Below are positions 893 to 64,000 of a DNA stretch of 64,000 bases, piece by piece (the first letter of the stretch is position 1; each line of letters opens with the position of its first letter). The stretch is from Patescibacteria group bacterium (GTDB lineage Bacteria > Patescibacteriota > Microgenomatia > JAMCYU01), in contig JAMCYU010000004.1 in assembly GCA_023473585.1 (NCBI GenBank), positions 133,748 through 197,747 on the forward strand, in the 5' to 3' direction. A program made the translations under genes and the position numbers. Under the pieces are notes generated by a model. The model was not told where the DNA came from, searched no databases, and was given only the letters and a program-made list of their open reading frames with translations.

Positions 893-1780
893 TTATTTCG
901 TCAAGGACCCTCCTGAAAAGAGAATATAATCAAAAATAGCCGGTAAAACCGGATAAGTACGGGTCACCTTGACTTTGCGGGTTGACTCGCCCGAAGTTCC
1001 GGTTGAAGTAATTTCGATTCCTTGTTGGGGGAAAGCGGCTTCGGATCCCACGGCTTGAACACCGATATTGGCAGAACCGTAGAACGGCCGCAAACGTAAA
1101 GCAAAAGCTTTATAAAATAAAGGTGCGGTTGAATAGTTGAATTCCACACCGTAATTAAAACCTAATTCACAATTATATGATCCGCTGGCAGCAAAATTAT
1201 TAGAATGAAGGTCAGAAGGTGCTTTATAGGCACCTCTGAAAATCTGGTAGGGACCGTTACTGCCTGTTTGTTGATAAACTAAGGTTATCTCCATGGAGGG
1301 GTCAACACTTTCAGCTTTTTCCCAACAGATATTAATCTTTTTAGCGGTAGAATTATAAAAACCCGTGCTTGGATCAAGGGTTCCGTCTGTATCATTGTGT
1401 TTAACTAACCAAACCGTGTAAGTATCACCGACACCGACGTTATTAACCCTGAATTGCCTGCTGTTACCAGCGGCAGCAGAGGTAAAAGTATACGTAGCTT
1501 TATTATCGCTAAAGGTCCCATTACCGGAAGTTTCTCCTTTTAAAGCGGCTTCGATACCGGCCTCGGCGGCGGCAAAAGCGCGTGCCGAGTCTTCCATTTG
1601 GGTTGAAATCTTAATGTCGGTTGAAGAACGGCCAATGGATGACAAACCGACGGTTAAGCCGACGGTCATCACCAAAAGAATGATTAAAAGAGCCTGACCA
1701 GACTCATAAAGACGATTTTTTTCCACCATAGGAAGATTTCTCCTTAAGTTTATTTTAGAGACTGCCAACTTTCCTGTCAA
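893..1780 (-). CDS. PilX-N-like minor pilin / pilus-associated protein
   Basis: The N-terminal hydrophobic segment ESGQALLIILLVMTVGLTVGL resembles the PilX_N domain. The remainder is Thr/Ser/Gly/Asn-rich. The TAA stop at 893-895 lies 1 nt from the pilM start. The start could instead be the internal Met at 1729. Confidence 0.5.
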   Translation of the reverse strand: MTGKLAVSKINLRRNLPMVEKNRLYESGQALLIILLVMTVGLTVGLSSIGRSSTDIKISTQMEDSARAFAAAEAGIEAALKGETSGNGTFSDNKATYTFTSAAAGNSRQFRVNNVGVGDTYTVWLVKHNDTDGTLDPSTGFYNSTAKKINICWEKAESVDPSMEITLVYQQTGSNGPYQIFRGAYKAPSDLHSNNFAASGSYNCELGFNYGVEFNYSTAPLFYKAFALRLRPFYGSANIGVQAVGSEAAFPQQGIEITSTGTSGESTRKVKVTRTYPVLPAIFDYILFSGGSLTK

Positions 1781-1785
1781 GCTTC

Positions 1786-2304
1786 TTAGTAATTTCTTAG
1801 AGAAACTGTCGTCTGGAAATTTATTGAGGCTTTTTCTTCGGGACGCGTGGCTGAAACATTGGCTTGAGTTAAAGCAAAACTGATCATGATAAGATCGGGC
1901 TTACCCGAAGTTCTCGTACAGGTAAAAAATAAATTATTGGCTCTAACTTTAGTATTCGTCAACATGCCGCCAGTTGAGGCGATCTGGTTACCCGAAAGCG
2001 AAAAGGTTGTTGTTGTCGAGGGATTTCCGGGGTTGGTTATTTGCAAAGAATTACGATTGGTAAAAGGACAAGGATTAACCACGTTATCTAAACCAATGGC
2101 GTTTCTAACCATCTTTTCCATCACCGAAAGCGCGTAATCACCGTTTTGCTTAACCTCCCTGGTTAGGTCGGTTTTAGCCGTGCTTTGTAAAACCGTAAAG
2201 AAAATTTGCGTCACGATAAAGCCGACCGTGCCTAAAATTGCCACCACGACTAAAAGCTCAATTAGGGTATAACCGTTAATTCTTTTTCTCATTTGGTCAC
2301 CCAA
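1786..2304 (-). CDS. Prepilin-type N-terminal cleavage/methylation domain protein (minor pilin)
   Basis: N-terminus MRKRINGYTLIELLVVVAILG is the class III signal peptide motif G|YTLIE. Confidence 0.7.
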   Translation of the reverse strand: MGDQMRKRINGYTLIELLVVVAILGTVGFIVTQIFFTVLQSTAKTDLTREVKQNGDYALSVMEKMVRNAIGLDNVVNPCPFTNRNSLQITNPGNPSTTTTFSLSGNQIASTGGMLTNTKVRANNLFFTCTRTSGKPDLIMISFALTQANVSATRPEEKASINFQTTVSLRNY

Positions 2305-2696
2305 TTTGAAAGAAATGATGTTAATTGAGATTGATGTGAGCCCGAACTGTCAAGCCAGGAAACGGTTATGGTTATTTTCCGTTTTTCCGCATCGCCTTCG
2401 TCCAGACAATTTATGGTTCTGGTAAAGGGAACAGGAACAGCACCTGGATTATAAGTCGGACAACTCGTCTTAAAATTGCTCCAAGTATTTTGGTCACGAA
2501 AGGCCCTGGTTTTTTCCATGCCTTCTTCGGCATATTTCGTTGCCAAAGCTTGATTCTTTGAAAATTGGACGTTTTTGATCGCTTCTCCGACCGTAAAAAC
2601 CAGGCCGGTGATAATCAAAACCGCAATCGCCATGGTGGCGACAACCTCAATTAATGATTGACCGTTTTTATGAGCAAGAGGTGACAAAACCGCCAT
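2289..2696 (-). CDS. PilV-like minor pilin (prepilin N-terminal domain)
   Basis: The internal start MAVLSPLAHKNGQSLIEVVATMAIAVLII (ATG rc at 2694-2696) gives a G|QSLIEV prepilin motif. The upstream part of the listed ORF is probably not translated. Confidence 0.6.
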   Translation of the reverse strand: MAVLSPLAHKNGQSLIEVVATMAIAVLIITGLVFTVGEAIKNVQFSKNQALATKYAEEGMEKTRAFRDQNTWSNFKTSCPTYNPGAVPVPFTRTINCLDEGDAEKRKITITVSWLDSSGSHQSQLTSFLSNWVTK

Positions 2697-3144
2697 CCTG
2701 AATTTCTCCTGTCGTGGTAACGATGATTTTATAGTATAAATTAAAACCAAAAAGACAAATCGTCCGTTGAGTTTCAACGCCCTGTCCTAATATCTTAAAT
2801 TCAATGGGTTGGGGTGAATTGGAAATATTTACGCCAGCAGGTAAGGGAAAAGTTGTTGTCGTCCCAGAACCTGCAGGCGAAACGCAAACAGCGTTAGTTT
2901 GATAATTATTAGCCGTAAAACTTACCCGGTAACGATCAAGAGTCGCGCAGGAACTTTTATTGCCGGTAAAGGCTTTCGTCTTGGCCGATTGTAAGTCATT
3001 TCTTAAGTCAAAGGCGGCCTGTTTTACGGTCTGGCGTTTATTAAAATCATTGTATCTGGCCAAACCGACGGTAAAAAGAATCGCGCCCACGGCGATCACC
3101 AAAAGCAGCTCGATTAAGGTAAAACCACGGTTTTTGGCTAACAT
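2668..3144 (-). CDS. Type IV pilin-like protein (prepilin N-terminal domain)
   Basis: Start MLAKNRGFTLIELLLVIAVGAILF (ATG rc 3142-3144), directly after the stop of the upstream pilin at 3146. Confidence 0.65.
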   Translation of the reverse strand: MLAKNRGFTLIELLLVIAVGAILFTVGLARYNDFNKRQTVKQAAFDLRNDLQSAKTKAFTGNKSSCATLDRYRVSFTANNYQTNAVCVSPAGSGTTTTFPLPAGVNISNSPQPIEFKILGQGVETQRTICLFGFNLYYKIIVTTTGEIQDGGFVTSCS

Positions 3145-3145
3145 T

Positions 3146-3835
3146 TTAAAAACCACCATCGCTACCCGCAACGCAACAACAGGGTTTACTAGAAACACAA
3201 GAGTTAGGATACGAGTATGTACCGCTACATATTTTCCCAAGCCCGGTACAACCAGATGTCGTGTTACATGTCCCTCCGCCATAAACACTACAAGAGTACT
3301 GGCAAGTTCTAGTCCCGGGAGAACACGCTAGTCCGGCACAACAATCACCATCATAGGTGCAACTCACATTTATTGTTTTGCACTGTTGCGGCGTTGGTAT
3401 TGGCGTTGGTATTGGTGTCGGCGTGGGTGTAACAATAATGACATTCGAACCTTCGGTCGTCACCTGATAGACCCCGCCGGTTTCCAAACTGGCGTTTAAA
3501 AGAAAACCATTTCTGCAAAGAACAGGCCCGGAAGAAGTATAACTATAGCGAGTTGCATCACCGGGGATAGGGTCCAAATACGTACGCCCGCTGTACGTTA
3601 AGGCTGTTGTTCCGTTAAAATTAAGAGCTTCCGGATAGCAATTGCTGTCGGCCCGGTACATTTCCAAAGCGCTTCTCACTTTTTCCATATCCGCTTTTCT
3701 TTTGGAATCGCGGGTTTTTTTCATTTGCTGGGGGTAATTAGTCAAAATTCCAATACTCGCCAAAATGCCGATTAAAACAAGAACCACCAAAAGCTCAATG
3801 AGGGTAAAACCGGCAATTTTTTTAAGTTTTAACAT
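3146..3835 (-). CDS. Type IV pilin (GspG/PilA-like) with Thr-Pro linker and Cys-rich C-terminal module
   Basis: MLKLKKIAGFTLIELLVVLVLIGILASIG plus KKTRDSKRKADMEKVRSALEMY is the T2SS-G/pilin signature. A TPTPTPIPTPIPTP linker is followed by about 80 aa containing 16 Cys. Confidence 0.7.
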   Translation of the reverse strand: MLKLKKIAGFTLIELLVVLVLIGILASIGILTNYPQQMKKTRDSKRKADMEKVRSALEMYRADSNCYPEALNFNGTTALTYSGRTYLDPIPGDATRYSYTSSGPVLCRNGFLLNASLETGGVYQVTTEGSNVIIVTPTPTPIPTPIPTPQQCKTINVSCTYDGDCCAGLACSPGTRTCQYSCSVYGGGTCNTTSGCTGLGKICSGTYSYPNSCVSSKPCCCVAGSDGGF

Positions 3836-3884
3836 CTCTTTTTATTATATTATAATCTACTTTAAATTCAATCTTTATAACTAC

Positions 3885-4427
3885 TTAATTTGATCTCAAA
3901 AACGAACCCGTGCTAATTTGCCAAGCATGTTGTGGTCTAACGGGATCATAAAAAAGGTCGTTTGGATTATTAAGAGCACCAGGAGCTTCCGGAGAACAAT
4001 GGGCTAAGAGTTTATAATTTTGCCCGTTAGAAAGATAAAGATAACAACTTTTCCAGGAAGTCCCGCAAATTGAGACAGTAAGGGGGTTAGTCTGTCCACT
4101 CCGGGGATCTTTTGGTAGTTCTTCAATGTATTGAGGAGAAAGATTAGGAATGTATCCATTTGGGCCACTGAGATCATAAGATCCTCCGTTATCGCCGCAG
4201 GCCCCCCGCCACGATCCCGCAACGGGATAAGTATTGTTATCTGTCTTATACATTTCCAAGGCCGTTTTTATTTTCGTTAAGTCTGCTTTTCTTTGCAGGT
4301 CGCGGGATTTTTGCATTTGCGTCTGGATATTCGTTATCACCAAAATCCCGATGGTGATGGAAATAATCACCAAAACAATTAAAAGTTCAATTAAGGTAAA
4401 ACCTCTGTTTTTTTTAAGTTTTAGCAT
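3885..4427 (-). CDS. Type IV pilin (GspG-like), paralog 1 of a tandem pair
   Basis: True start MLKLKKNRGFTLIELLIVLVII (ATG rc 4425-4427), then QKSRDLQRKADLTKIKTALEMY. The C-terminus NYKLLAHCSPEAPGA...NDLFYD..RP is shared with the next gene. Confidence 0.7.
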   Translation of the reverse strand: MLKLKKNRGFTLIELLIVLVIISITIGILVITNIQTQMQKSRDLQRKADLTKIKTALEMYKTDNNTYPVAGSWRGACGDNGGSYDLSGPNGYIPNLSPQYIEELPKDPRSGQTNPLTVSICGTSWKSCYLYLSNGQNYKLLAHCSPEAPGALNNPNDLFYDPVRPQHAWQISTGSFLRSN

Positions 4428-4443
4428 TTCTTTATTATAAAGA

Positions 4444-4968
4444 CTACCAACCTGCAGAACCCGGGCCAGAGTGAACTTGCCAGGCCCATGTTGGTCTTGC
4501 CGAATCATAGAAAAGATCATTTGAACTATAAGCACCGGGCGCTTCCGGAGAACAATGGGCTAAGAGTTTATAATTTTGCCCATCATCAGAACGATAAAGA
4601 TAACAAGTCGAGGCGCTATCATTACAAGGCGGATAAGATTGCCCATTTCTGGGATCAAGCGGCAATTTCGCAATATAAGTCGGAGCCAAATTAGGAATAT
4701 AACCAGTTGCTCCACTGGTTGAATAATTTCCATATCCGCATCCTGATCCCTGCCAAGAACCTCCAGATGATGGATAGTTATTATTAATTTCCCGGTACAT
4801 CTCTAAGGCATTTTTTAATTGCGACAAATCATTTTTTCTCGTTGCGTCGCGGGTTTTTTTAAGAGAGGTCTGGACGTTTGTGTAAATGACGAAACTGCTC
4901 ACGATCCCAACCAGGACAAGAACGATTAGGAGTTCGATTAAAGTAAAGCCGCGATCAGTTTTTCCCAT
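4444..4968 (-). CDS. Type IV pilin (GspG-like), paralog 2 of a tandem pair
   Basis: MGKTDRGFTLIELLIVLVLVG; KKTRDATRKNDLSQLKNALEMY; C-terminus YKLLAHCSPEAPGAYSSNDLFYDSARP. Confidence 0.7.
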   Translation of the reverse strand: MGKTDRGFTLIELLIVLVLVGIVSSFVIYTNVQTSLKKTRDATRKNDLSQLKNALEMYREINNNYPSSGGSWQGSGCGYGNYSTSGATGYIPNLAPTYIAKLPLDPRNGQSYPPCNDSASTCYLYRSDDGQNYKLLAHCSPEAPGAYSSNDLFYDSARPTWAWQVHSGPGSAGW

Positions 4969-5744
4969 AAAAGGTGGCCGTAAAACAGGGCAAAAATCGT
5001 GCTTCCTGCCAAAAACGGTCCAAAAGGAATATGACTTTTTAACTTTTTTTTGCCTCTTAAAATCAGTATTACACCGATGGCGGCCCCTGTCAAGAAAGCC
5101 AGGTATAAAGCGACGATAATTTTCGGATAGCCCAAAAAAAGACCCATCAAAACGGCTAATTTGAAATCCCCAAAACCCATACCCCGGCCGGAAGTTAATA
5201 AAAATAAAATTAAAAAAAGGAGACCGGCCAAAAAGCCGGAGATGAGATTCGATATAAGGATATTGGGATATAAGGAGAAGATGAGAGTGATGATGATGGC
5301 CGGATAAACGATTTCGTCGGGAATTATTTCGTGGTAAAGATCAATAAAGAAAATGACAATTAAAGCGTAAATAAGTATTAAGTAGTAGGTAGTAAGTATT
5401 AAGTCTTGTCTGCTTAATACTAAATACTTAATACTTAATACTGTAAGTACTCCCGTCACTAATTCCACAAAAGGATATTGCCAACTGATAGGGAAGTGAC
5501 AATGCCGGCAACGACCGCCCAAAACAAGAAAAGAAAGAAGCGGAAGGTTATCATACCAGGAAATTTTCTTTTTGCATTTAGGACAAAAAGAGCGGCCGGT
5601 AAGGGGAAGGGAATTGGGTAAACGATAAATCAAAACATTCAAAAACGAACCGAATACCAAACCAAAACAAAAGAAAAAAAGTGGAAACAAAAAAATCATA
5701 AGAAAATTAACACCTTTACACTGAAAGAATTCAACCTTATACAA
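4938..5744 (-). CDS. pilD: Prepilin peptidase (A24 family) PilD
   Basis: GSFLNVLIYRLP, a tetracysteine CPKC...CRHC motif, catalytic FFIDLYHEIIPD and GMGFGDFKL. The start may be the internal Met (MIFLFPLFFF). Confidence 0.85.
   Translation of the reverse strand: MYKVEFFQCKGVNFLMIFLFPLFFFCFGLVFGSFLNVLIYRLPNSLPLTGRSFCPKCKKKISWYDNLPLLSFLVLGGRCRHCHFPISWQYPFVELVTGVLTVLSIKYLVLSRQDLILTTYYLILIYALIVIFFIDLYHEIIPDEIVYPAIIITLIFSLYPNILISNLISGFLAGLLFLILFLLTSGRGMGFGDFKLAVLMGLFLGYPKIIVALYLAFLTGAAIGVILILRGKKKLKSHIPFGPFLAGSTIFALFYGHLLWEKLIAALL
5372..5457. repeat. AGTAT/ATACT-type AT-rich simple-repeat block inside pilD
   Basis: TAAGTATTAAGTAGTAGGTAGTAAGTATTAAGTCTTGTCTGCTTAATACTAAATACTTAATACTTAATACTGTAAGTACT. 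It shares 16-19-mers with the blocks at 8981-9017 and 28466-28497 and encodes SIKYLVLSRQDLILTTYYLILIY. Confidence 0.7.
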
Positions 5745-5757
5745 GGCTGAATTCTTT
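5724..5757 (-). terminator. Hairpin immediately downstream of the major pilin gene (possible partial terminator or attenuator before pilD)
   Basis: Inverted repeat GAAAGAATTCA...TGAATTCTTT(G) with a 10/11-bp stem, located between the pilA stop (5783) and the pilD start. Confidence 0.3.
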
Positions 5758-5782
5758 GTGGATTTATTTCTCTTTACCTAAA

Positions 5783-6202
5783 TTATGGCGGACAGACACC
5801 AACTCCCGTACTTGTTCCAATCTTCCCGTTTGACGCACACCAAACAAAAGCAGGCGTCGGCGACGTTCCACCCGTATATTTTTTAGACAGCAAGTTTGTG
5901 GAAACAATCGGCGCGCTAGTCGTTCCCCCAATCGTATACGTATATCCTGTTGGTGGAGTAGGCGCAGTTTTTAACTCTCCAAATGTGACCAAATCGGCTG
6001 TTGTCAAAACGTAAACCGAACTGTGAGCTGTGGCATACGCCTCCATAGCGGTAGCAATCTGCCCGATATCGTTCATCGCTTTAGCGTCGTTGGCCGAGCG
6101 TATCTTATCTAAAGGATCAATAACCATAAACAACCCGGCTGAAAGAACGGCTAAAATAGCGATCACAACCAAAAGCTCAATTAAAGTAAAACCTCTTTTC
6201 AT
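5783..6202 (-). CDS. pilA: Type IV major pilin candidate (139 aa)
   Basis: MKRGFTLIELLVVIAILAVLSAGLF is a classic prepilin leader plus N-methyl-Phe helix. It is short and has a strong SD (AGGGGGTG) upstream. Confidence 0.75.
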   Translation of the reverse strand: MKRGFTLIELLVVIAILAVLSAGLFMVIDPLDKIRSANDAKAMNDIGQIATAMEAYATAHSSVYVLTTADLVTFGELKTAPTPPTGYTYTIGGTTSAPIVSTNLLSKKYTGGTSPTPAFVWCASNGKIGTSTGVGVCPP

Positions 6203-6255: not shown

Positions 6256-6660
6256 TCAGGGATTATCACGAAAAGTTCGCCACGTTCCTTCTCTTTGCAT
6301 TTTCAAGATTGCCTGTATCTGACGAGTTAATAAATAATCTGTCTTGCCACATAATTCGTCTAATTTTTTATATTCATCTTCTGTTATTAATCTGTCTTCT
6401 CGACAATCTTCTATGTCTCCTAATAATTCTCCTAAAGATCCTCGACTGATATTAAGAAATTGTATATATTCTCCTGCTGTTCCTCGTTTATATCCTTCTT
6501 GTATATTTTGTTTTGCGCTTCGTGCTGCATCTCTCATTTGGCTTACTCTTCTAAATTCAATTTTAGGAAATCTTTTAGTAATTTGATAAATTAAACTTCT
6601 TAAAGAATAACTATTTCGCCAAACGATTAATTTTCTAAATCCTCCTTGATATTCCGTCAT
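6256..6660 (-). CDS. Four-helix-bundle protein (23S rRNA intervening-sequence protein / TIGR02436 family, Avd-like fold)
   Basis: Motifs KLIVWRNSYSL...ITKRFPKIEF...QMRDAARSAKQNIQEGYKR...EYIQFLNISRGSLGEL match the family. The gene is visibly AT-rich (about 30% GC) compared with the flanking pil genes (about 43-45%). Confidence 0.6.
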   Translation of the reverse strand: MTEYQGGFRKLIVWRNSYSLRSLIYQITKRFPKIEFRRVSQMRDAARSAKQNIQEGYKRGTAGEYIQFLNISRGSLGELLGDIEDCREDRLITEDEYKKLDELCGKTDYLLTRQIQAILKMQREGTWRTFRDNP

Positions 6661-6692: not shown

Positions 6693-7901
6693 TTAGAAAG
6701 CATTTGTTAACTGATAAATCGGCATGATGATCGAAAAGATCATGAAACCAACGCCGACGGCCAATACAACCATTATTATGGGTTCAATCGCGGTTGTCAA
6801 GCCTTTAACCATTTGTTCCGATTCGGTCTCAAAATAATGAGACAATTTAAGCAGCGAGTCGTCAAGTTTGCCGGTTTCTTCGCCGACTTTCGTCATTTGT
6901 CCCAAAATGGCCGGATAAAGAGGATTCTGGGCAAAAAGCACCCCCATAGGAAAACCTTTTTCCACTTTAAGGGCAACCTCTTTTAAGCCCTCCTGATAAA
7001 GGATACTTTCAATTGACCCAGAGACAATATTTAAAGCTTCAATAATGGGCAATCCCGCGCTCACCAAAAGACCTAAAGTCCGACAGAATTCGGTTAAAAT
7101 AATTTCCTGTCTTAATTTTCCCATTACCGGTAAACTGAAGAGAAATTTATCCAAAAGATGCGCGCCGATGGAAGTTTTTTTCCAAAGATTAAAAAGAAAA
7201 ATACTCAAAACTCCCAAAAGTAAAATAAGCCACCAAAAGGAAACCGAAAAATCCGAAATCGCTATCAAAATTCTCGTGGTTAATGGTAGGGCAACGTTAA
7301 AATCCTTATACATCACGGTCAGTCTTGGCACCACCAAAACCATCATCAAGAACATAACAATGACCATGCCGATTAAAATAATAACCGGATAAATCATCGC
7401 TCCTTTAACTTTTGATTGAAATTCTTTTTCTTTTTCCAAGTTATCGGCCAGTCTCGTCAAAACCTGATCAAGCATCCCGCCGGCTTCGCCGGCTCTGATT
7501 AAGGCAACATAGCTTCGGGAAAAATACCTGGGATATTTTTCCAAAGCATTGGCAAAATTATTGCCGGCCTCAACCTCATGCTGTACATCATCTAAAACCC
7601 TGGTAAAAGCCGGATTCATTTTTTGGCCACGCAGAATATTTAAAGCGTCGGTTAAGGTTAAACCGGCGACAAACATGGTCGCCAATTGTCGGGTAAAATT
7701 GACGATATCGTTAAAACCCACGCCTTTGAGGTTATTGGTTAAAGCGGAAAAAGAGAATTTGCCGGTCGCCGGGACGATATTGATGACCAAAAAACCCTGT
7801 TCTCTTAAAAGATTGGCCGCATCCCGATCGGTCCGCGCCTCAACCACGCCGGTGCCGCGCTTCCCGTATTGATCCCTAATTTTATAATTAAAAAGCGCCA
7901 T
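6693..7901 (-). CDS. pilC: Type IV pilus assembly platform protein PilC (GspF family)
   Basis: Two T2SS-F repeats and three TM segments; MALFNYKIRDQYGKRGTGVVEA is a typical PilC N-terminus. Confidence 0.9.
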   Translation of the reverse strand: MALFNYKIRDQYGKRGTGVVEARTDRDAANLLREQGFLVINIVPATGKFSFSALTNNLKGVGFNDIVNFTRQLATMFVAGLTLTDALNILRGQKMNPAFTRVLDDVQHEVEAGNNFANALEKYPRYFSRSYVALIRAGEAGGMLDQVLTRLADNLEKEKEFQSKVKGAMIYPVIILIGMVIVMFLMMVLVVPRLTVMYKDFNVALPLTTRILIAISDFSVSFWWLILLLGVLSIFLFNLWKKTSIGAHLLDKFLFSLPVMGKLRQEIILTEFCRTLGLLVSAGLPIIEALNIVSGSIESILYQEGLKEVALKVEKGFPMGVLFAQNPLYPAILGQMTKVGEETGKLDDSLLKLSHYFETESEQMVKGLTTAIEPIIMVVLAVGVGFMIFSIIMPIYQLTNAF

Positions 7902-7903
7902 AT

Positions 7904-8965
7904 TTAACTGCGTCTGCCCTTGGTTAAACGATCCAACTCTTCCGGTTTTAAAGCAAAGCTTTGGGCAACTTCCAGGGTAATTTTTCCGGCCTTAACTAAA
8001 CGGGCCAGGGTTCCTTCAAGCGAAATCATCCCCAGTTCCGCCGAAGTTTGGATAATATTATCAATCAAATGTGTTTTGCCTTCCCGGATCGTCGTTTTCA
8101 CGGCCGGGGTTGCCGTTAAAATCTCGCAGGCGGGAATGCGGCCGCCGCCGACCGCCGGCAATAATCTTTGTGATAAAATTCCTTCCAAAGTTGCTGATAA
8201 TTGCATTCTCACTTGCGCTTTCGTATGTTCGGGAAAAACATCAACAATACGGTCAACGGTTTGCGCGGCGGAGTTGGTATGCAAAGTCGCAAAAACCAAA
8301 TGACCGGTTTCGGCAATCGTTAGGGCCGCGGAAATCGTCTCATAATCGCGCATTTCGCCGATTAAAACAACATCAGGATCCTCACGCAAACACGAACGCA
8401 GAGAAACTTCCCAGGAATGACTGTCAAGATGCATTTCTCGCTGTGAAACCATGGACTTACCTTTAGGATAAACGTATTCAATCGGATCTTCAATCGTAAT
8501 AATATGCGTTGCCCGAGTCTGATTAATTTCGTCAATGATCGCCGCCAAGGTCGTTGATTTACCGTGGCCGGTCGGACCGGTCATGAGGATAAAACCTTGT
8601 CTTAGAGACGCAAAAGTATGACAAATCTGGGGCAAATTAAGCTCGTCAATTGACCTTATTTTAAAAGGAATTAATCTGAAAGCCGCCGCCATCGAACCTT
8701 TTTGAAAATAGACATTTACCCGAAACCTGGCCTGATCGGTTCCGTAACTAAAATCAAGCTCTTTATTAGCTAAAAAAAGTTCTTTTTGTTCCGGACTTAA
8801 AATCGCCAAAATCAACGACTCGGCTTCTTCGGCGGTTAGAAGTTCTTTGTCAGAAAGGGGAACAAGGAAACCGTCAATTCTTAGGGTCGGTTGCATCCCC
8901 ACCACCAGATGAAGGTCCGAGGCCCCTCGGCGGTTTGTTTCGTTTAATAATTCTTGAATATTCAC
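7904..8965 (-). CDS. pilT: Twitching-motility retraction ATPase PilT
   Basis: GTG start; ASDLHL, Walker A GPTGHGKSTT, Asp box and His box (GRIPACEIL). About 350 aa. Confidence 0.9.
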   Translation of the reverse strand: MNIQELLNETNRRGASDLHLVVGMQPTLRIDGFLVPLSDKELLTAEEAESLILAILSPEQKELFLANKELDFSYGTDQARFRVNVYFQKGSMAAAFRLIPFKIRSIDELNLPQICHTFASLRQGFILMTGPTGHGKSTTLAAIIDEINQTRATHIITIEDPIEYVYPKGKSMVSQREMHLDSHSWEVSLRSCLREDPDVVLIGEMRDYETISAALTIAETGHLVFATLHTNSAAQTVDRIVDVFPEHTKAQVRMQLSATLEGILSQRLLPAVGGGRIPACEILTATPAVKTTIREGKTHLIDNIIQTSAELGMISLEGTLARLVKAGKITLEVAQSFALKPEELDRLTKGRRS

Positions 8966-8980
8966 TTTCCCTCCTTATTT

Positions 8981-9017
8981 CATACTTAATACTTTATACT
9001 TAATACTAAATACTAAT
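8981..9017. repeat. ATACTTAATACT tandem repeat block in the pilB-pilT intergenic region / pilT 5-prime UTR
   Basis: CATACTTAATACTTTATACTTAATACTAAATACTAAT. Confidence 0.7.
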
Positions 9018-10719
9018 CTTGGGCGACTCTTAAAACTTCCTCTATTGTCGTTATCCCCTCAATAACTTTCAAGTAACCGTCTTGTTTCATCGTGATCATG
9101 CCTTCTTCAACCGCTTGTTTTTCCACTTGGTCCGCGGACGCTCTTTCCAAAACCATCCGACCGATTTTTTCCGAAATCGGTAAAACCTCAAAAACGCCCA
9201 CCCGGCCGAAATAACCGGTACCGTTACATTCCTGGCAACCCTTACCTTTGTAAAGTTTAACCGCCCCTTTAAGAGGCGGAAATAAATTACCCAAGACTTT
9301 TTTAATATCTTCAACGACTTCGGGTGCCGGTTCGTAAGATTCTTTGCACTCCGGACAAATTTTACGGCAAATCCGCTGGCCGACAATGGCGTTTAAAGAG
9401 GACGCCACCAAGAAAGGCTCCGCCCCCATATCCAAAAGCCGGGGCAGGGCTGTCGAGGCATTATTGGTGTGCAGGGTCGAAAAAACCAAATGACCGGTTA
9501 AGGCCGCCTGGATGGCCAGGCCGGTTGTTTCGCTATCCCGAATTTCTCCCACCAAAATAATATTCGGATCCTGACGCAAGAAAGCTTTTAGGCCGGTAGC
9601 AAAGGTTAAGCCGGCTTGAGGATTAACCTGCACCTGATTAACACCGGCAATTTGGTATTCAACGGGGTCTTCCAAAGTGACGATATTGACCCTGATGGTA
9701 TTTAATCTTGACAAAACCGCGTATAAAGTCGTGGTTTTCCCGGAACCGGTCGGTCCCGTGACTAAAATAATACCGTGCGGCCGCAAAATGGCAATTTCCA
9801 AATTTTTCAAAGCCGTACCGCGAAGACCTAGTTCCGGCAAAGAAGGAACGCCACCGCTTTTTTTCAAAAGTCGCATAACGACTTTTTCCCCGAAAGACGT
9901 CGGCAGGGTGGAAATACGCAAATCAACCTCTTCTTCACCCATTTTAAAATTGAAACGGCCGTCCTGGGGCACCCGGCGTTCGTCAATTTTCATATCCGAT
10001 AAAATTTTTATTCTGGAAACCACGGCCTCGTGAACTGATTTGGGCAGGGCGATTTTTTCGTGCAAAATACCGTCAATTCGATAACGAACCCTCGTTTTGT
10101 CTTCACCCGGTTCGATATGAATATCAGAGGCCCTTGACTTAATGGCAAATTCGAGAAGAGTCGAAACTATTTTGGCAATCGGCGCTTCTCTGATAACTTC
10201 ACCCAATTTACCCGCCTCAAAAGTCCTTACCGACGGCAGGGAAGTTTCTTTTAAGGCAGCCGTGACTTCAGTCGTTAAATTTTGAGAGTACTGCTGATCA
10301 ATGATTTCTTTAATTTCTTCGGGCAAAGCCAAAAAAGGCACAATTTTTTTACCGGATTTTCTTTCCACGAATTCAATCACCTGCAAATCTAAAGGGTCGG
10401 CCATGGCTACCGATAAAAGATTTTTTTTGTCGTCAAAATTAAAGGGGAAAAGATTATAGCGCCTGGCGACAGGCTCGGGAATATAAGTTAAAATCTCCGG
10501 CGAAACACCTTTACCGGTTAAGGTGACAAAAGGAACATTTAAAAGTTTTGCCTTCGCTTTGCCTATTTGTTCTGGGGTGGTCAGTTTTTTTCTGGTAACG
10601 ATCTCTTCAATCGAAATCCCGCTGTTTAAACTTTCAACCTTAACACTCGAGGCAATTTCCGGAGTAATAACTTTATCCGCAGCTAAAAGATCAACCAGTG
10701 TTTGGGCAGAATCAACCAT
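9013..10719 (-). CDS. pilB: Type IV pilus assembly ATPase PilB (GspE family)
   Basis: N-terminal T2SSE_N region, Walker A GPTGSGKTTT and tetracysteine motif CRKICPECK...CQECNGTG. Confidence 0.9.
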   Translation of the reverse strand: MVDSAQTLVDLLAADKVITPEIASSVKVESLNSGISIEEIVTRKKLTTPEQIGKAKAKLLNVPFVTLTGKGVSPEILTYIPEPVARRYNLFPFNFDDKKNLLSVAMADPLDLQVIEFVERKSGKKIVPFLALPEEIKEIIDQQYSQNLTTEVTAALKETSLPSVRTFEAGKLGEVIREAPIAKIVSTLLEFAIKSRASDIHIEPGEDKTRVRYRIDGILHEKIALPKSVHEAVVSRIKILSDMKIDERRVPQDGRFNFKMGEEEVDLRISTLPTSFGEKVVMRLLKKSGGVPSLPELGLRGTALKNLEIAILRPHGIILVTGPTGSGKTTTLYAVLSRLNTIRVNIVTLEDPVEYQIAGVNQVQVNPQAGLTFATGLKAFLRQDPNIILVGEIRDSETTGLAIQAALTGHLVFSTLHTNNASTALPRLLDMGAEPFLVASSLNAIVGQRICRKICPECKESYEPAPEVVEDIKKVLGNLFPPLKGAVKLYKGKGCQECNGTGYFGRVGVFEVLPISEKIGRMVLERASADQVEKQAVEEGMITMKQDGYLKVIEGITTIEEVLRVAQD

Positions 10720-63180: not shown

Positions 63181-64000
63181 TTAAGGCTTATATGATTTTA
63201 AGCGAGAGATAAGTTCAGAGAACGAGAGAAGTTCGGTTTTATCCTGACTTCTTACCTTCCATTCTATTTGCCCTTTGGTTTTGGGTGAAATGATTAATCT
63301 TACCGGCAAACCGATTAAATCAGCGTCGGCAAATTTTGAACCGGCGGAGGTCTCTTCCCGATCATCATAGAGAACCTCTATTCCCTCACCCTGCAATTTT
63401 TCGTAAATTTCCAAACCGTTTTCTTCTAGAGAAATTAGATGAGCCGAAAACGGAGCCACTTCTTCTGGCCAAATGATCCCTCTCTCATCATGGCTTGATT
63501 CCACGATCGTCGCCATTAATCTGCCTATCCCTATTCCGTAACAGCCCATTAAAATAGGTTTCTTTTCTCCTTTTTCATCGGCAAAGTAAGCCCCCAGCTT
63601 TTCCGAATAGCGCGTTCCTAATTTAAAAACATGACCATTTTCAATGGCGTTATTTTCCTCTAATTCTCCTCCGCATTTGGGACATTTTTCCTCTTTGCCT
63701 TTTTCTTCGTTTTCCGCCCAATCGCATTTCGTACAACACAAAACTTTGTCTTCACCTGTTTCACAAAGCATCATGAATTCGTGGGAAAAATTACCGCCGA
63801 TACACCCCGACTGCGCCTCAACAATTTTCGTCACCAAGCCGCACCGCGTAAAGATTTTTTTATAAGCTTTTATAACTTTAAAATAAAAATCATCCAGATC
63901 TTTATCGCTCGTATTAAAAGAATAAAGATCTTTCATTAGAAATTCCCTGACCCTTAAAAGTCCGCCGGTTGAGCGCATTTCGTTTCGAAATTTATTCTGA
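63181..64000 (-). CDS. proS: Prolyl-tRNA synthetase (partial; N-terminal part lies beyond the right edge)
   Basis: Class II motif REFLMKDLYSF, a Cys-rich insertion (CTKCDW...CPKCGG) and a C-terminal anticodon-binding domain. The frame is open to position 64000. Confidence 0.85.
   Translation of the reverse strand, partial: QNKFRNEMRSTGGLLRVREFLMKDLYSFNTSDKDLDDFYFKVIKAYKKIFTRCGLVTKIVEAQSGCIGGNFSHEFMMLCETGEDKVLCCTKCDWAENEEKGKEEKCPKCGGELEENNAIENGHVFKLGTRYSEKLGAYFADEKGEKKPILMGCYGIGIGRLMATIVESSHDERGIIWPEEVAPFSAHLISLEENGLEIYEKLQGEGIEVLYDDREETSAGSKFADADLIGLPVRLIISPKTKGQIEWKVRSQDKTELLSFSELISRLKSYKP

What the first reader, a model, noticed from the sequence alone, without database searches (positions are those of the whole stretch)
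3146..3835. Pilin with Thr-Pro linker and a C-terminal module carrying 16 cysteines
Seen in sequence:
- A canonical class III prepilin N-terminus (KKIAGFTLIELLVVLVLIG) and GspG/pilin core.
- Then a TPTPTPIPTPIPTP linker.
- Then about 80 residues with 16 Cys (QQCKTINVSCTYDGDCCAGLACSPGTRTCQYSCSVYGGGTCNTTSGCTGLGKICSGTYSYPNSCVSSKPCCCVAGSDGG).

This architecture looks like a pilus-displayed disulfide-rich (knottin- or granulin-like) tip or adhesin domain. It sits in the same operon as five other pilin-like genes and the major pilin.

Inference: a modular minor pilin presenting a Cys-rich binding module at the pilus tip. This is plausible for host or particle attachment in an episymbiont-like organism.
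Basis: partly seen in the sequence, partly recalled or inferred. Interest (0 to 1): 0.55.

Follow-up and report, generated by a model that had tools for sequence, protein, structure and literature searches.

The report
Pilin carrying knotted cysteine-rich cargo
A pilus-subunit gene of an ultrasmall Patescibacteria bacterium carries, on a proline/threonine tether, two tiny cysteine-rich domains; the first resembles spider-venom "knottin" peptides, and the cargo evolves far faster than its carrier, so it is a plausible but untested host- or surface-recognition device.

Summary
A 229-aa ORF on the minus strand (3835→3146) encodes a canonical type IV prepilin followed by the linker TPTPTPIPTPIPTP and an 80-aa tail. 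The tail has 14 Cys, not 16; the other two are in the pilin head.

- **Not an artefact.** The gene is nucleotide-identical in three assemblies. It sits in a complete retractile type IV pilus operon.
- **Knottin-like first sub-module.** Residues 152-178 have the framework C6C5CC4C6C. Scored alone they pass Pfam Toxin_12 (26.3 bits, cutoff 21). Versions with Cys fixed and other residues shuffled reach at most 17.6 bits. A profile of eight such pilin-borne modules retrieves knottin-type mini-proteins from the PDB (best E 8e-5).
- **Orphan second sub-module.** Residues 182-229 (8 Cys) match nothing.
- **Fold unconfirmed.** AlphaFold2 gave pLDDT of about 49.
- **Fast-evolving cargo.** The only close relative (P0002) has an 81% identical carrier but a roughly 26% identical tail, with the break exactly at the linker.
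- **Recurrent design.** 30 of 243 related pilins carry small Cys-rich tails after a P/T linker, and 29 of those 30 have an even Cys count.

Verdict: a modular pilin (a known kind) with a new cargo type. Binding function and tip location are inferred, not shown. Interest 0.5.

The parts
3146..3835 (-). Whole ORF, 229 aa plus TAA stop (3146-3148): modular type IV prepilin (identical to P0001; NCBI MCL4382997.1 / MCL5095434.1)
3809..3835 (-). Leader peptide, residues 1-9 (MLKLKKIAG), ending in the Gly of the prepilin peptidase site
   Evidence: read directly from the sequence; Pfam N_methyl 30 bits; TIGR02532 28.4 bits
3737..3808 (-). Mature N-terminus, residues 10-33 (FTLIELLVVLVLIGILASIGILTN): hydrophobic alpha1 helix with Glu5
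   Evidence: AF2 helix 12-61, the only region with pLDDT >80; the N-terminal ~60-70 residues match solved Geobacter pilin, GspG and PilA chains
3443..3736 (-). Pilin head, residues 34-131, GspG-like start (RDSKRKADMEKVRSALEMYRAD), one Cys pair C66/C107
   Evidence: T2SSG 19.8 bits and TIGR01710 49.6 bits, both below cutoff; 81% identical to P0002 over residues 1-135; dN/dS 0.19
3389..3430 (-). Linker T136-P149, TPTPTPIPTPIPTP. The DNA similarity to the P0002 gene breaks here
3302..3382 (-). Sub-module 1, C152-C178: inhibitor-cystine-knot-like framework C-x6-C-x5-CC-x4-C-x6-C
   Evidence: Toxin_12 26.3 bits alone (cutoff 21), 21.7 in the tail, 20.0 in the full protein; Jingzhaotoxin-XI 2a2v E 0.005, ungapped; Cys-fixed shuffles reach at most 17.6 bits; profile of 8 pilin-borne modules hits knottin-type proteins in the PDB
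3149..3292 (-). Sub-module 2, C182-F229: 8 Cys (C-x7-C-x5-C-x6-C-x9-C-x5-CCC), orphan
   Evidence: no Pfam hit at E<=10; no PDB hit at E<=10
2668..3144 (-). Next gene, GspH/ComGD-like minor pilin. Its ATG lies 1 nt after the stop codon (TAA A ATG), suggesting translational coupling
893..2696 (-). Three further minor-pilin-like genes (2289-2696, 1786-2292, 893-1729/1780; the last carries PilX_N), followed by pilM, which is cut by the window start (1-891)
3885..4968 (-). Two GspG-like pilin paralogues (3885-4427, with the same MLKLKK leader; 4444-4968)
4938..5744 (-). Prepilin peptidase PilD (A24_N_bact 108 bits, Peptidase_A24 58.9 bits)
5783..6202 (-). 139-aa pilin, candidate major pilin
   Evidence: the 'major' role is inference
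6693..10719 (-). PilC platform (6693-7901), PilT retraction ATPase (7904-8965; 444.6 bits, cutoff 319.1) and PilB/GspE-type assembly ATPase (9013-10719)

Best explanation
The gene encodes a genuine type IV pilin of a Patescibacteria pilus machine, used as a carrier for a small disulfide-rich cargo.

**Proposed mechanism**
1. The PilD peptidase encoded in the same operon cleaves after Gly9.
2. The hydrophobic alpha1 helix, with Glu5, polymerises into the filament built by PilB, PilC and PilM. PilT retracts the filament.
3. The head domain ends at the filament surface.
4. A stiff 14-residue Thr/Pro tether projects the cargo outward. If fully extended as polyproline II it would span roughly 4 nm, and it may be O-glycosylated.
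5. The cargo is two tandem mini-domains held by seven disulfides. The first is a knottin (inhibitor-cystine-knot)-like unit of 6 Cys. The second is an 8-Cys unit with no relatives.
6. The cargo most likely acts as a rigid, protease-resistant ligand-binding head, perhaps binding host cell-wall glycan or protein.

Because the cargo diverges far faster than the carrier, and such cargos are exchanged between carriers at the linker, it is probably a specificity determinant.

**Shown:** the architecture, the operon, the integrity of the gene, the recurrence of the design, the knottin-like sequence framework, and the contrast between carrier and cargo divergence.

**Inferred:** cleavage, incorporation into pili, disulfide formation and knot topology, position in the filament (tip or shaft), and the binding function.
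For: **Pilin identity and machinery.** N_methyl and TIGR02532 score above cutoff. PilD, PilC, PilT and a PilB-type ATPase lie in the same operon, followed by four minor-pilin-like genes and pilM.

**Real gene.** It is identical in three assemblies. There is no alternative-frame signal. The start codon of the next gene lies 1 nt after the stop.

**Same architecture in the closest relative.** P0002 has it, with the same gene order in its locus L001.

**Knottin-likeness of sub-module 1**
- Toxin_12 scores 26.3 bits against a cutoff of 21.
- It aligns without gaps to Jingzhaotoxin-XI.
- Cys-fixed shuffles give 0-17.6 bits, so non-Cys residues contribute to the score.
- Eight pilin-borne modules share the consensus C-x3-G-x2-C-x5-8-CC-x-G-L-x-C.
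- A profile of those eight modules finds 48 PDB chains at E<=1. Nearly all are small disulfide-rich toxins or inhibitors. The top hit is the double-knot toxin at E 8e-5.

**Disulfides rather than free thiols**
- 29 of 30 small Cys-rich pilin tails have an even Cys count (p = 6e-8).
- All eight pilin-like proteins of the operon have even counts.

**Carrier versus cargo**
- Amino-acid identity is 81% (110/135) in the carrier against 16/61 in the tail.
- DNA identity is 0.73-0.96 up to nt 405, then 0.4-0.6 from the linker onward.
- The carrier has dN/dS 0.19.
- In the knottin loops pN is 0.74, equal to the permutation null of 0.71. pS is 0.46, below the null of 0.73 (1% of permutations are as low) and close to the carrier's 0.39.

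**Shuffling**
- P0040 and P0062 have cores 80% identical and tails 24% identical.
- P0073 and P0154 have cores 29% identical and tails 53% identical.
- One carrier subfamily bears at least five different tails.

**Precedent**
- Modular pilins present functional modules (PMC8179133).
- A Saccharibacteria minor pilin with a C-terminal accessory domain (PilX2) is needed for normal host binding; PilX1 also carries such a domain (PMC11623550).
Against: - No confident fold. AlphaFold2 gave pLDDT 49.6 for the whole protein and 48.9 for the tail alone, both without an alignment. Foldseek found nothing. Knot topology and disulfide pairing are therefore unproven.
- The Toxin_12 score on the full-length protein (20.0) falls just under the cutoff of 21.
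- Related pilin-borne modules score only 9-17 bits against toxin families. That is the range reached by Cys-fixed shuffles, so the resemblance is largely the cysteine framework and may be convergent.
- The 80-aa tail found no homologue in the 5.8-billion-protein search. Sub-module 2 is an orphan.
- Only one close relative exists.
- The dN/dS contrast rests on 20 loop codons and a single alignment.
- There are no expression, proteomic or binding data.
- A CxxC motif screen found no obvious thiol-disulfide oxidoreductase in the 64-kb window (a weak test). Many Patescibacteria live in anoxic water.
- The frequency of Cys-rich tails (30 of 243) is inflated, because the query itself contains the linker and tail.
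Confidence: 0.6

Rival explanations
1. Same protein, different role in the filament. It would be a GspG-position, polymerising (major-like) subunit. It would be incorporated along the shaft, or form its own filament, coating it with tethered knottin modules. It would not be a low-abundance tip adhesin.
For: - Glu5 is present, and the protein has a GspG-like N-terminus (TIGR01710 49.6 bits).
- The gene lies directly upstream of the GspH/I/J/K-like genes, in the 'G' position.
- The cargo is only about 8 kDa on a flexible tether. Raynaud et al. say a shaft location cannot be excluded when the linker is flexible enough.
Against: - Three GspG-like paralogues and a separate 139-aa pilin next to pilC/pilD compete for the major role.
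- The modular pilins characterised in S. sanguinis are minor (low-abundance) pilins.
- TIGR01710 and Pfam T2SSG both score below cutoff.
Confidence: 0.2
2. The knottin-like module is a toxin or effector rather than an adhesin. The pilus would present it to the host cell, where it would block or gate a host membrane protein, as spider ICK toxins do.
For: - The best family match is Pfam 'Ion channel inhibitory toxin', and the best PDB matches are gating-modifier theraphotoxins.
- The tandem arrangement recalls bivalent double-knot toxins.
- Cultivated Patescibacteria are obligate episymbionts, and TM7x shows a phase of host killing.
Against: - The match is mostly framework.
- By my reading of the sequence, the module lacks the hydrophobic/aromatic patch and basic ring typical of those toxins.
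- It is covalently tethered to a pilin.
- No processing site is seen between carrier and cargo.
Confidence: 0.07
3. The Cys-rich tail binds metal or has a redox role (metallothionein- or Fe-S-like) rather than being disulfide-bonded.
For: - The tail is 17.5% Cys, with CC and CCC runs.
- No Dsb-type gene was seen in the window.
- Anoxic habitats are common for the group (my knowledge).
Against: - Cys counts are even in 29 of 30 such tails.
- The spacing is knottin-type, and the profile hits only disulfide-rich mini-proteins.
- The tail contains five Tyr and one Phe but no His. Metallothioneins typically lack aromatic residues (my knowledge).
Confidence: 0.05
4. The tail is a non-functional extension, or an assembly or gene-fusion artefact.
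For: - The tail has no confident predicted fold.
- Sequence search found no homologues of the tail.
Against: - The gene is identical in three assemblies.
- The reading frame is intact, with a coupled downstream start.
- The architecture and the total of 14 tail Cys are kept in P0002 despite dS of about 0.5.
- The design recurs in dozens of pilins.
Confidence: 0.03

Closest known systems
Modular type IV pilins, e.g. Streptococcus sanguinis PilB (vWA module) and PilC (lectin module) (Raynaud et al. 2021, PMC8179133; PMC9934059)
   Same: A class III signal peptide and a small pilin module are joined through a linker to a C-terminal module that the filament presents. The design is reported as widespread (more than 1,200 proteins, 264 architectures), including in Candidate Phyla Radiation bacteria.
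   Different: - The cargo here is tiny (80 aa) and consists of two tandem disulfide-rich mini-domains. In full-length context it reaches no database signature (Toxin_12 20.0 bits, cutoff 21), so a signature-based survey would probably miss it.
- The linker is a pure Thr/Pro repeat.
- The cargo is hypervariable relative to the carrier.
- Function is untested here.
Saccharibacteria (TM7x) minor pilins PilX1/PilX2 with C-terminal accessory domains (PMC11623550)
   Same: This is a Patescibacteria type IV pilus locus. It has pilins carrying extra C-terminal domains that are proposed to be the host-binding element. Deleting pilX2 halves host binding.
   Different: - Their accessory domains are a beta-jelly-roll and a seven-bladed beta-propeller, not Cys-rich mini-domains.
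- Those proteins lack a predicted PilD signal, whereas this one has a canonical signal.
Spider inhibitor-cystine-knot toxins, Pfam Toxin_12 (PF07740), e.g. Jingzhaotoxin-XI (PDB 2a2v)
   Same: The cysteine framework and loop lengths are identical (C6C5CC4C6C). They align without gaps, sharing 12 of 31 residues, including D-x-D-CC-A-x-L-x-C-x-P. The score is 26.3 bits against a cutoff of 21 when the domain is scored alone.
   Different: - The module is bacterial and fused to a pilin, with no toxin-type signal or propeptide.
- By my reading it lacks the toxin pharmacophore.
- The score falls to 20.0 bits in the full-length protein.
- Sister modules in other pilins do not reach threshold.
- The resemblance is probably convergent, or too ancient to prove.
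Tandem-ICK 'double-knot' peptides (DkTx, Tau-theraphotoxin-Hs1a) and secreted cysteine-rich repeat proteins (PMC6262176, PMC9885460)
   Same: Two disulfide-rich mini-domains are joined in tandem by a short linker. P0002 even has a second TP linker between its two knottin-like units. DkTx is the top PDB hit of the pilin-module profile.
   Different: In this protein the second unit is not knottin-like by sequence. No bivalent target is known.
Thr/Pro/Ser-linker plus small disulfide-stabilised binding domain, as in fungal CBM1 cellulases and hevein- or tachystatin-type chitin binders (from my knowledge; a lead, not a test)
   Same: A P/T-rich tether ends in a 30-50-aa disulfide-rich module with exposed aromatic residues. 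The tail here has five Tyr and one Phe. One sister module gave a weak hit to tachystatin A (14.6 bits).
   Different: No significant match to any carbohydrate-binding family was found. Carbohydrate binding is speculation.

Membership tests
Type IV pilin (class III signal peptide protein) | Short basic leader ending in Gly, then Phe+1 and Glu+5 in a hydrophobic stretch of about 20 residues | tested here: met
   MLKLKKIAG|FTLIELLVVLVLIGILA. PF07963 scores 30.0 bits against 21.2. TIGR02532 scores 28.4 bits against 16.3.
Type IV pilin (class III signal peptide protein) | Cognate prepilin peptidase and assembly machinery are present | tested here: met
   PilD (108 and 58.9 bits), PilC, PilT (444.6 bits, cutoff 319.1), a PilB-type ATPase and pilM lie in the same operon.
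Type IV pilin (class III signal peptide protein) | Lollipop fold: a long alpha1 helix plus a beta-sheet head | tested here: inconclusive
   AF2 predicts helix 12-61 followed by six strands, but the mean pLDDT is 49.6.
Type IV pilin (class III signal peptide protein) | Cleaved, N-methylated and polymerised into filaments | not testable with these tools
   Needs proteomics or microscopy.
GspG (T2SS major pseudopilin) equivalog | Score above the curated cutoff of TIGR01710 or PF08334 | tested here: not met
   TIGR01710 scores 49.6 bits against 88.85, matching residues 9-72 only. PF08334 scores 19.8 bits against 21. The protein is GspG-like at its N-terminus but is not a member.
Modular pilin (sensu Raynaud et al. 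2021) | An N-terminal pilin module fused through a linker to an extra C-terminal module | tested here: met
   Pilin 1-131, linker 136-149, cargo 150-229.
Modular pilin (sensu Raynaud et al. 2021) | The extra module has a direct role in a pilus-mediated function | not testable with these tools
   No functional data are available.
Knottin / inhibitor cystine knot (Pfam Toxin_12) | Six Cys in the framework C-C-CC-C-C with compatible loop lengths | tested here: met
   C152-x6-C159-x5-C165C166-x4-C171-x6-C178. The exact framework arises in 2e-5 of tail shuffles.
Knottin / inhibitor cystine knot (Pfam Toxin_12) | Profile score above the gathering threshold | tested here: inconclusive
   26.3 bits for the domain alone and 21.7 bits for the tail (both pass 21). 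The full protein scores 20.0 bits, just below. Cys-fixed shuffles give 0-17.6 bits.
Knottin / inhibitor cystine knot (Pfam Toxin_12) | Disulfides I-IV, II-V and III-VI, with the third threading the ring (the knot) | tested here: inconclusive
   The AF2 tail model has pLDDT 48.9, and Foldseek against the PDB found nothing. Needs disulfide mapping or a structure.
Knottin / inhibitor cystine knot (Pfam Toxin_12) | Ion-channel inhibitory activity | not testable with these tools
I consider the activity unlikely.
Granulin | Twelve-Cys granulin framework and a PF00396 match | tested here: not met
   No Granulin hit at E<=10. The spacing differs.

The most novel reading that the evidence does not exclude
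Patescibacteria may use a conserved pilin carrier as a natural display scaffold for a shuffled, fast-evolving repertoire of disulfide-knotted mini-binders. The repertoire would include the knottin-like units and at least three other small Cys-rich families, exchanged at the Thr/Pro-linker DNA. This cargo would set which host cell or surface an episymbiont can attach to. It would evolve as venom peptides do: conserved leader and carrier, fixed cysteines, hypervariable loops.
Probability: 0.3. Interest if true: 0.75.

Novelty: new variant of a known kind. Interest (0 to 1): 0.5.

Why it matters
How ultrasmall episymbiotic bacteria recognise their hosts is an open question, and type IV pili are the leading candidates. 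This gene points to a compact, swappable, disulfide-stabilised recognition head on a pilin. No database signature captures it, so domain-based surveys of modular pilins would miss it.

If the cargo really sets specificity, tail sequences could be used to predict or track host range in metagenomes. The 80-aa tail is small enough to synthesise and test directly for binding.

It would also give knottin-like mini-proteins a defined structural context in bacteria. The KNOTTIN database lists bacterial knottin sequences but has no experimental structure for them (PMC5753296).

Tried and rejected
- **Tail-only search.** The 80-aa tail found no candidate in the 5.8-billion-protein collection.
- **Profile with linkers.** A profile of five linker-plus-module tails returned only P0111 and hits driven by the linker.
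- **Full-length search of 1.84 billion representatives.** The pilin core dominated the result, and only P0001 passed E 1e-30.
- **Locus scans.** Scans of metagenome and genome collections with the carrier gave no further orthologue. The source genome is not in the species-representative set.
- **Structure.** Two AlphaFold2 runs without alignments gave pLDDT 49.6 and 48.9. A Foldseek search of the PDB was meaningless.
- **Sub-module 2.** No Pfam or PDB match at E<=10.
- **Granulin reading.** Rejected.
- **Frameshift or fusion artefact.** Rejected.
- **Promoter and terminator scan.** Counts were not above shuffles. The TTGAAT-16-TATAAT site at 3871-3844 is not evidence.
- **Oxidoreductase screen.** A CxxC motif screen of the window's ORFs found no obvious Dsb or thioredoxin-type protein (a weak test).
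- **Literature.** No paper combines Patescibacteria, pilin and cysteine-rich or disulfide bond. The held supplements of Raynaud et al. contain no knottin or toxin architecture.
- **Horizontal transfer from an animal toxin gene.** Considered and rejected as unsupported. The sister modules match only at the level of the cysteine framework.
Full report
**Observation**

The interval 3146-3835 holds one ORF on the minus strand, ATG at 3835 and TAA at 3146-3148, 229 aa. The plus strand of the same interval is full of stops.

The protein begins MLKLKKIAG|FTLIELLVVLVLIGILA. This is a class III signal peptide with Gly-1, Phe+1 and Glu+5. Pfam N_methyl scores 30.0 bits (cutoff 21.2) and NCBIfam TIGR02532 scores 28.4 bits (cutoff 16.3).

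Residues 136-149 are exactly TPTPTPIPTPIPTP. One correction is needed: those 80 residues contain 14 cysteines, not 16. C66 and C107 in the pilin head bring the protein total to 16.

This is far beyond chance.
- Cys is 0.78% of 17,276 residues in 56 other ORFs of the window, giving P(>=14 in 80) of about 3e-15.
- Only one other real ORF of the window (63181-63978) has a stretch with at least 6 Cys in 40 aa, and it is much less dense than this tail.

**Is the gene real?**

- The exact protein is in NCBI under two accessions, named as a Patescibacteria-group MAG prepilin.
- The 690-nt gene is nucleotide-identical in a Logan assembly of SRR10267473 (100% over 3,869 bp) and in GCA_023380895.1 (99.7% over 3.3 kb).
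- The other two frames across the linker and tail encode nothing related to the homologue's tail.
- The next gene's ATG lies one base after the stop codon (TAA A ATG).

A frameshifted fusion is therefore excluded.

**Context**

Read along the minus strand, the operon runs as follows:

| Position | Gene |
|---|---|
| 9013-10719 | PilB/GspE-type ATPase |
| 7904-8965 | PilT (444.6 bits, cutoff 319.1) |
| 6693-7901 | PilC |
| 6256-6660 | small PF05635 protein |
| 5783-6202 | 139-aa pilin |
| 4938-5744 | PilD |
| 4444-4968, 3885-4427 | two GspG-like pilins |
| 3146-3835 | this gene |
| 2668-3144 | GspH/ComGD-like pilin |
| 893-2696 | three more minor-pilin-like genes, the last with PilX_N |
| 1-891 | pilM, cut by the window start |

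This is a complete retractile type IV pilus locus with seven other pilin-like genes.

The same layout surrounds Cys-tailed pilins in four other loci, L001, L013, L015 and L016: the pilin lies upstream of the minor-pilin block, with pilM downstream where the contig reaches it and PilD upstream in L015.

**The carrier**

The N-terminal 70 residues resemble GspG, ComGC and Geobacter pilin, but all scores are below the family cutoffs. It is therefore a GspG-like pilin, not a GspG equivalog.

It keeps Glu5 and occupies the 'G' position just before the H/I/J/K-like genes. The labels 'minor' and 'tip' are consequently not established.

**The cargo, first sub-module (C152-C178)**

The framework is C-x6-C-x5-CC-x4-C-x6-C.
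- Scored alone, it matches Pfam Toxin_12 (ion channel inhibitory toxin) at 26.3 bits, E 1.2e-5, against a cutoff of 21. In the 80-aa tail it scores 21.7 bits. In the full protein it scores 20.0 bits.
- It aligns without gaps to Jingzhaotoxin-XI (PDB 2a2v), E 0.005.
- As a control, I kept the six Cys fixed and shuffled the other residues. Two of nine shuffles still hit Toxin_12, at 15.6 and 17.6 bits. The other seven did not hit it. The framework therefore supplies much of the score, and the real loops add about 9 bits or more.
- The exact framework arises in 2e-5 of shuffles of the tail.

**The cargo, second sub-module (C182-F229)**

It has 8 Cys and ends in CCC. It has no Pfam or PDB match at E<=10.

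**Structure**

AlphaFold2 without an alignment gave pLDDT 49.6 for the whole protein and 48.9 for the tail alone. Foldseek found nothing. The knot itself is therefore unconfirmed.

**Relatives**

The tail alone retrieved nothing from the word-indexed 5.8-billion-protein collection.

The full protein retrieved one close relative, P0002: 231 aa, from Logan SRR22388171, with the same downstream gene order.
- P0002 has the same carrier, a longer TP linker, and a knottin-like unit (C6C5CC3C7C).
- A second short TP linker follows, and then a second knottin-like unit with an extra Cys pair.
- Its tail again holds 14 Cys.

The carrier is 81% identical (110/135), while the tail shares 16 of 61 aligned positions, mostly Cys. 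DNA identity is 0.73-0.96 up to nt 405 and falls to 0.4-0.6 exactly at the linker.

Nei-Gojobori estimates give the following picture.
- For the carrier, dS is 0.54 and dN is 0.10.
- In the 20 non-Cys codons of the first knottin unit, pN is 0.74, indistinguishable from a permutation null of 0.71.
- In the same codons, pS is 0.46, below the null of 0.73 (1% of permutations are as low) and close to the carrier's 0.39.

This suggests descent in place with saturating amino-acid replacement in the loops. It rests on few codons and is suggestive only.

**A recurrent design**

Among 243 pilin homologues gathered:
- 53 have a P/T-rich linker after residue 100.
- 30 of those are followed by a small tail (20-110 aa) with at least 4 Cys.
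- 8 are followed by large domains (DUF1554, Laminin_G_3, repeat propeller-like and others).
- 29 of the 30 small tails have an even Cys count (p = 6e-8), as expected for intramodule disulfides.

This frequency is an upper bound, because the query itself contains a linker and a tail.

Knottin-like frameworks occur in P0002 (twice), P0043, P0111, P0142 and P0235. In P0086 the unit is an insertion inside the pilin head. The modules share the consensus C-x3-G-x2-C-x5-8-CC-x-G-L-x-C.

A profile built only from these eight bacterial modules retrieved 48 chains at E<=1 from 177,635 distinct PDB sequences.
- By name, nearly all are small disulfide-rich toxins and inhibitors: theraphotoxins, conotoxins, gurmarin, plant amylase and trypsin inhibitors, and sponge asteropsins. 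Classifying these names as knottins is from my own knowledge.
- The double-knot toxin is first, at E 8e-5.

Scored individually, the sister modules reach only 9-17 bits on toxin families. The family is thus knottin-like in framework. Membership of any animal toxin family is not shown, and convergence is likely.

**Shuffling**

- P0040 and P0062 have cores 80% identical and tails 24% identical.
- P0073 and P0154 have cores 29% identical and tails 53% identical.
- One carrier subfamily (P0001, P0002, P0111, P0112, P0124, P0142, P0154) bears at least five different tails, all joined at the same point after the last conserved head motif.

Cargo and carrier therefore have separate histories, and the linker is the junction.

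**Interpretation**

The best-supported reading is a modular type IV pilin whose carrier is processed by PilD and built into the pilus. Its Thr/Pro tether projects two disulfide-rich mini-domains that act as a rigid binding head.

This follows the concept of modular pilins (PMC8179133). It also follows the finding that Saccharibacteria pilins with accessory C-terminal domains mediate host binding (PMC11623550).

What appears to be new is the type of cargo, its tandem and hypervariable nature, and the evidence for exchange at the linker. I found no paper describing it. The KNOTTIN database notes bacterial knottin sequences but no experimental structure for them.

Position in the filament, disulfide formation, fold and ligand are all inferred.

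The rival readings are a shaft-coating major-like subunit, a tethered toxin, metal binding, and a non-functional extension. I rate them at 0.2, 0.07, 0.05 and 0.03.

**Verdict**

This is a new variant of a known kind. Interest is 0.5.

Noticed in passing
window 6256-6660 (-): A 134-aa '23S rRNA-intervening sequence protein' (PF05635, 84.6 bits) sits inside the pilus operon, between pilC and the 139-aa pilin.
   Followed up: no
L015 2032-5228: In the pilus locus of P0030, two glycosyltransferase-like genes (PMT_2/TMEM260_N, 681 aa; Mannosyl_trans2, 384 aa) lie between a pilin and pilD. This hints at pilin O-glycosylation, perhaps of the Thr/Pro linkers. The window's locus has no equivalent.
   Followed up: no
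L016 1080-1850 (P0086): A knottin-like module followed by a roughly 40-residue TP linker is inserted inside the pilin head, between alpha1 and the beta-sheet part, instead of at the C-terminus.
   Followed up: partly
proteins P0073/P0154 and P0040/P0062: The same 8-Cys tail occurs on very different carriers (cores 29% identical, tails 53%). Conversely, near-identical carriers bear unrelated tails (cores 80%, tails 24%). Cargo is therefore shuffled between pilins in both directions.
   Followed up: partly
L008 1881-3374: A 497-aa pilin has a long Ser/Thr-rich repeat region and ends in a separate 6-Cys motif (CSTNRDCSTFSCTSGTPVCNTFLRICEC).
   Followed up: no
proteins P0108 and P0114: These ORFs contain two complete pilin modules in tandem, each with its own GFTLIELL motif. 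They could be real fusions or gene-call or assembly artefacts.
   Followed up: no
window 3885-4427 and 3146-3835 (-): The neighbouring GspG-like pilin and this gene share the identical leader MLKLKK. The 3' ends of the two upstream pilin genes are about 80% identical in DNA. Both point to local duplication.
   Followed up: partly
window 893-6202 (-): All eight pilin-like proteins of the operon have even cysteine counts (2, 4, 4, 16, 4, 2, 2, 2). A CxxC motif screen found no obvious thiol-disulfide oxidoreductase in the 64-kb window.
   Followed up: partly
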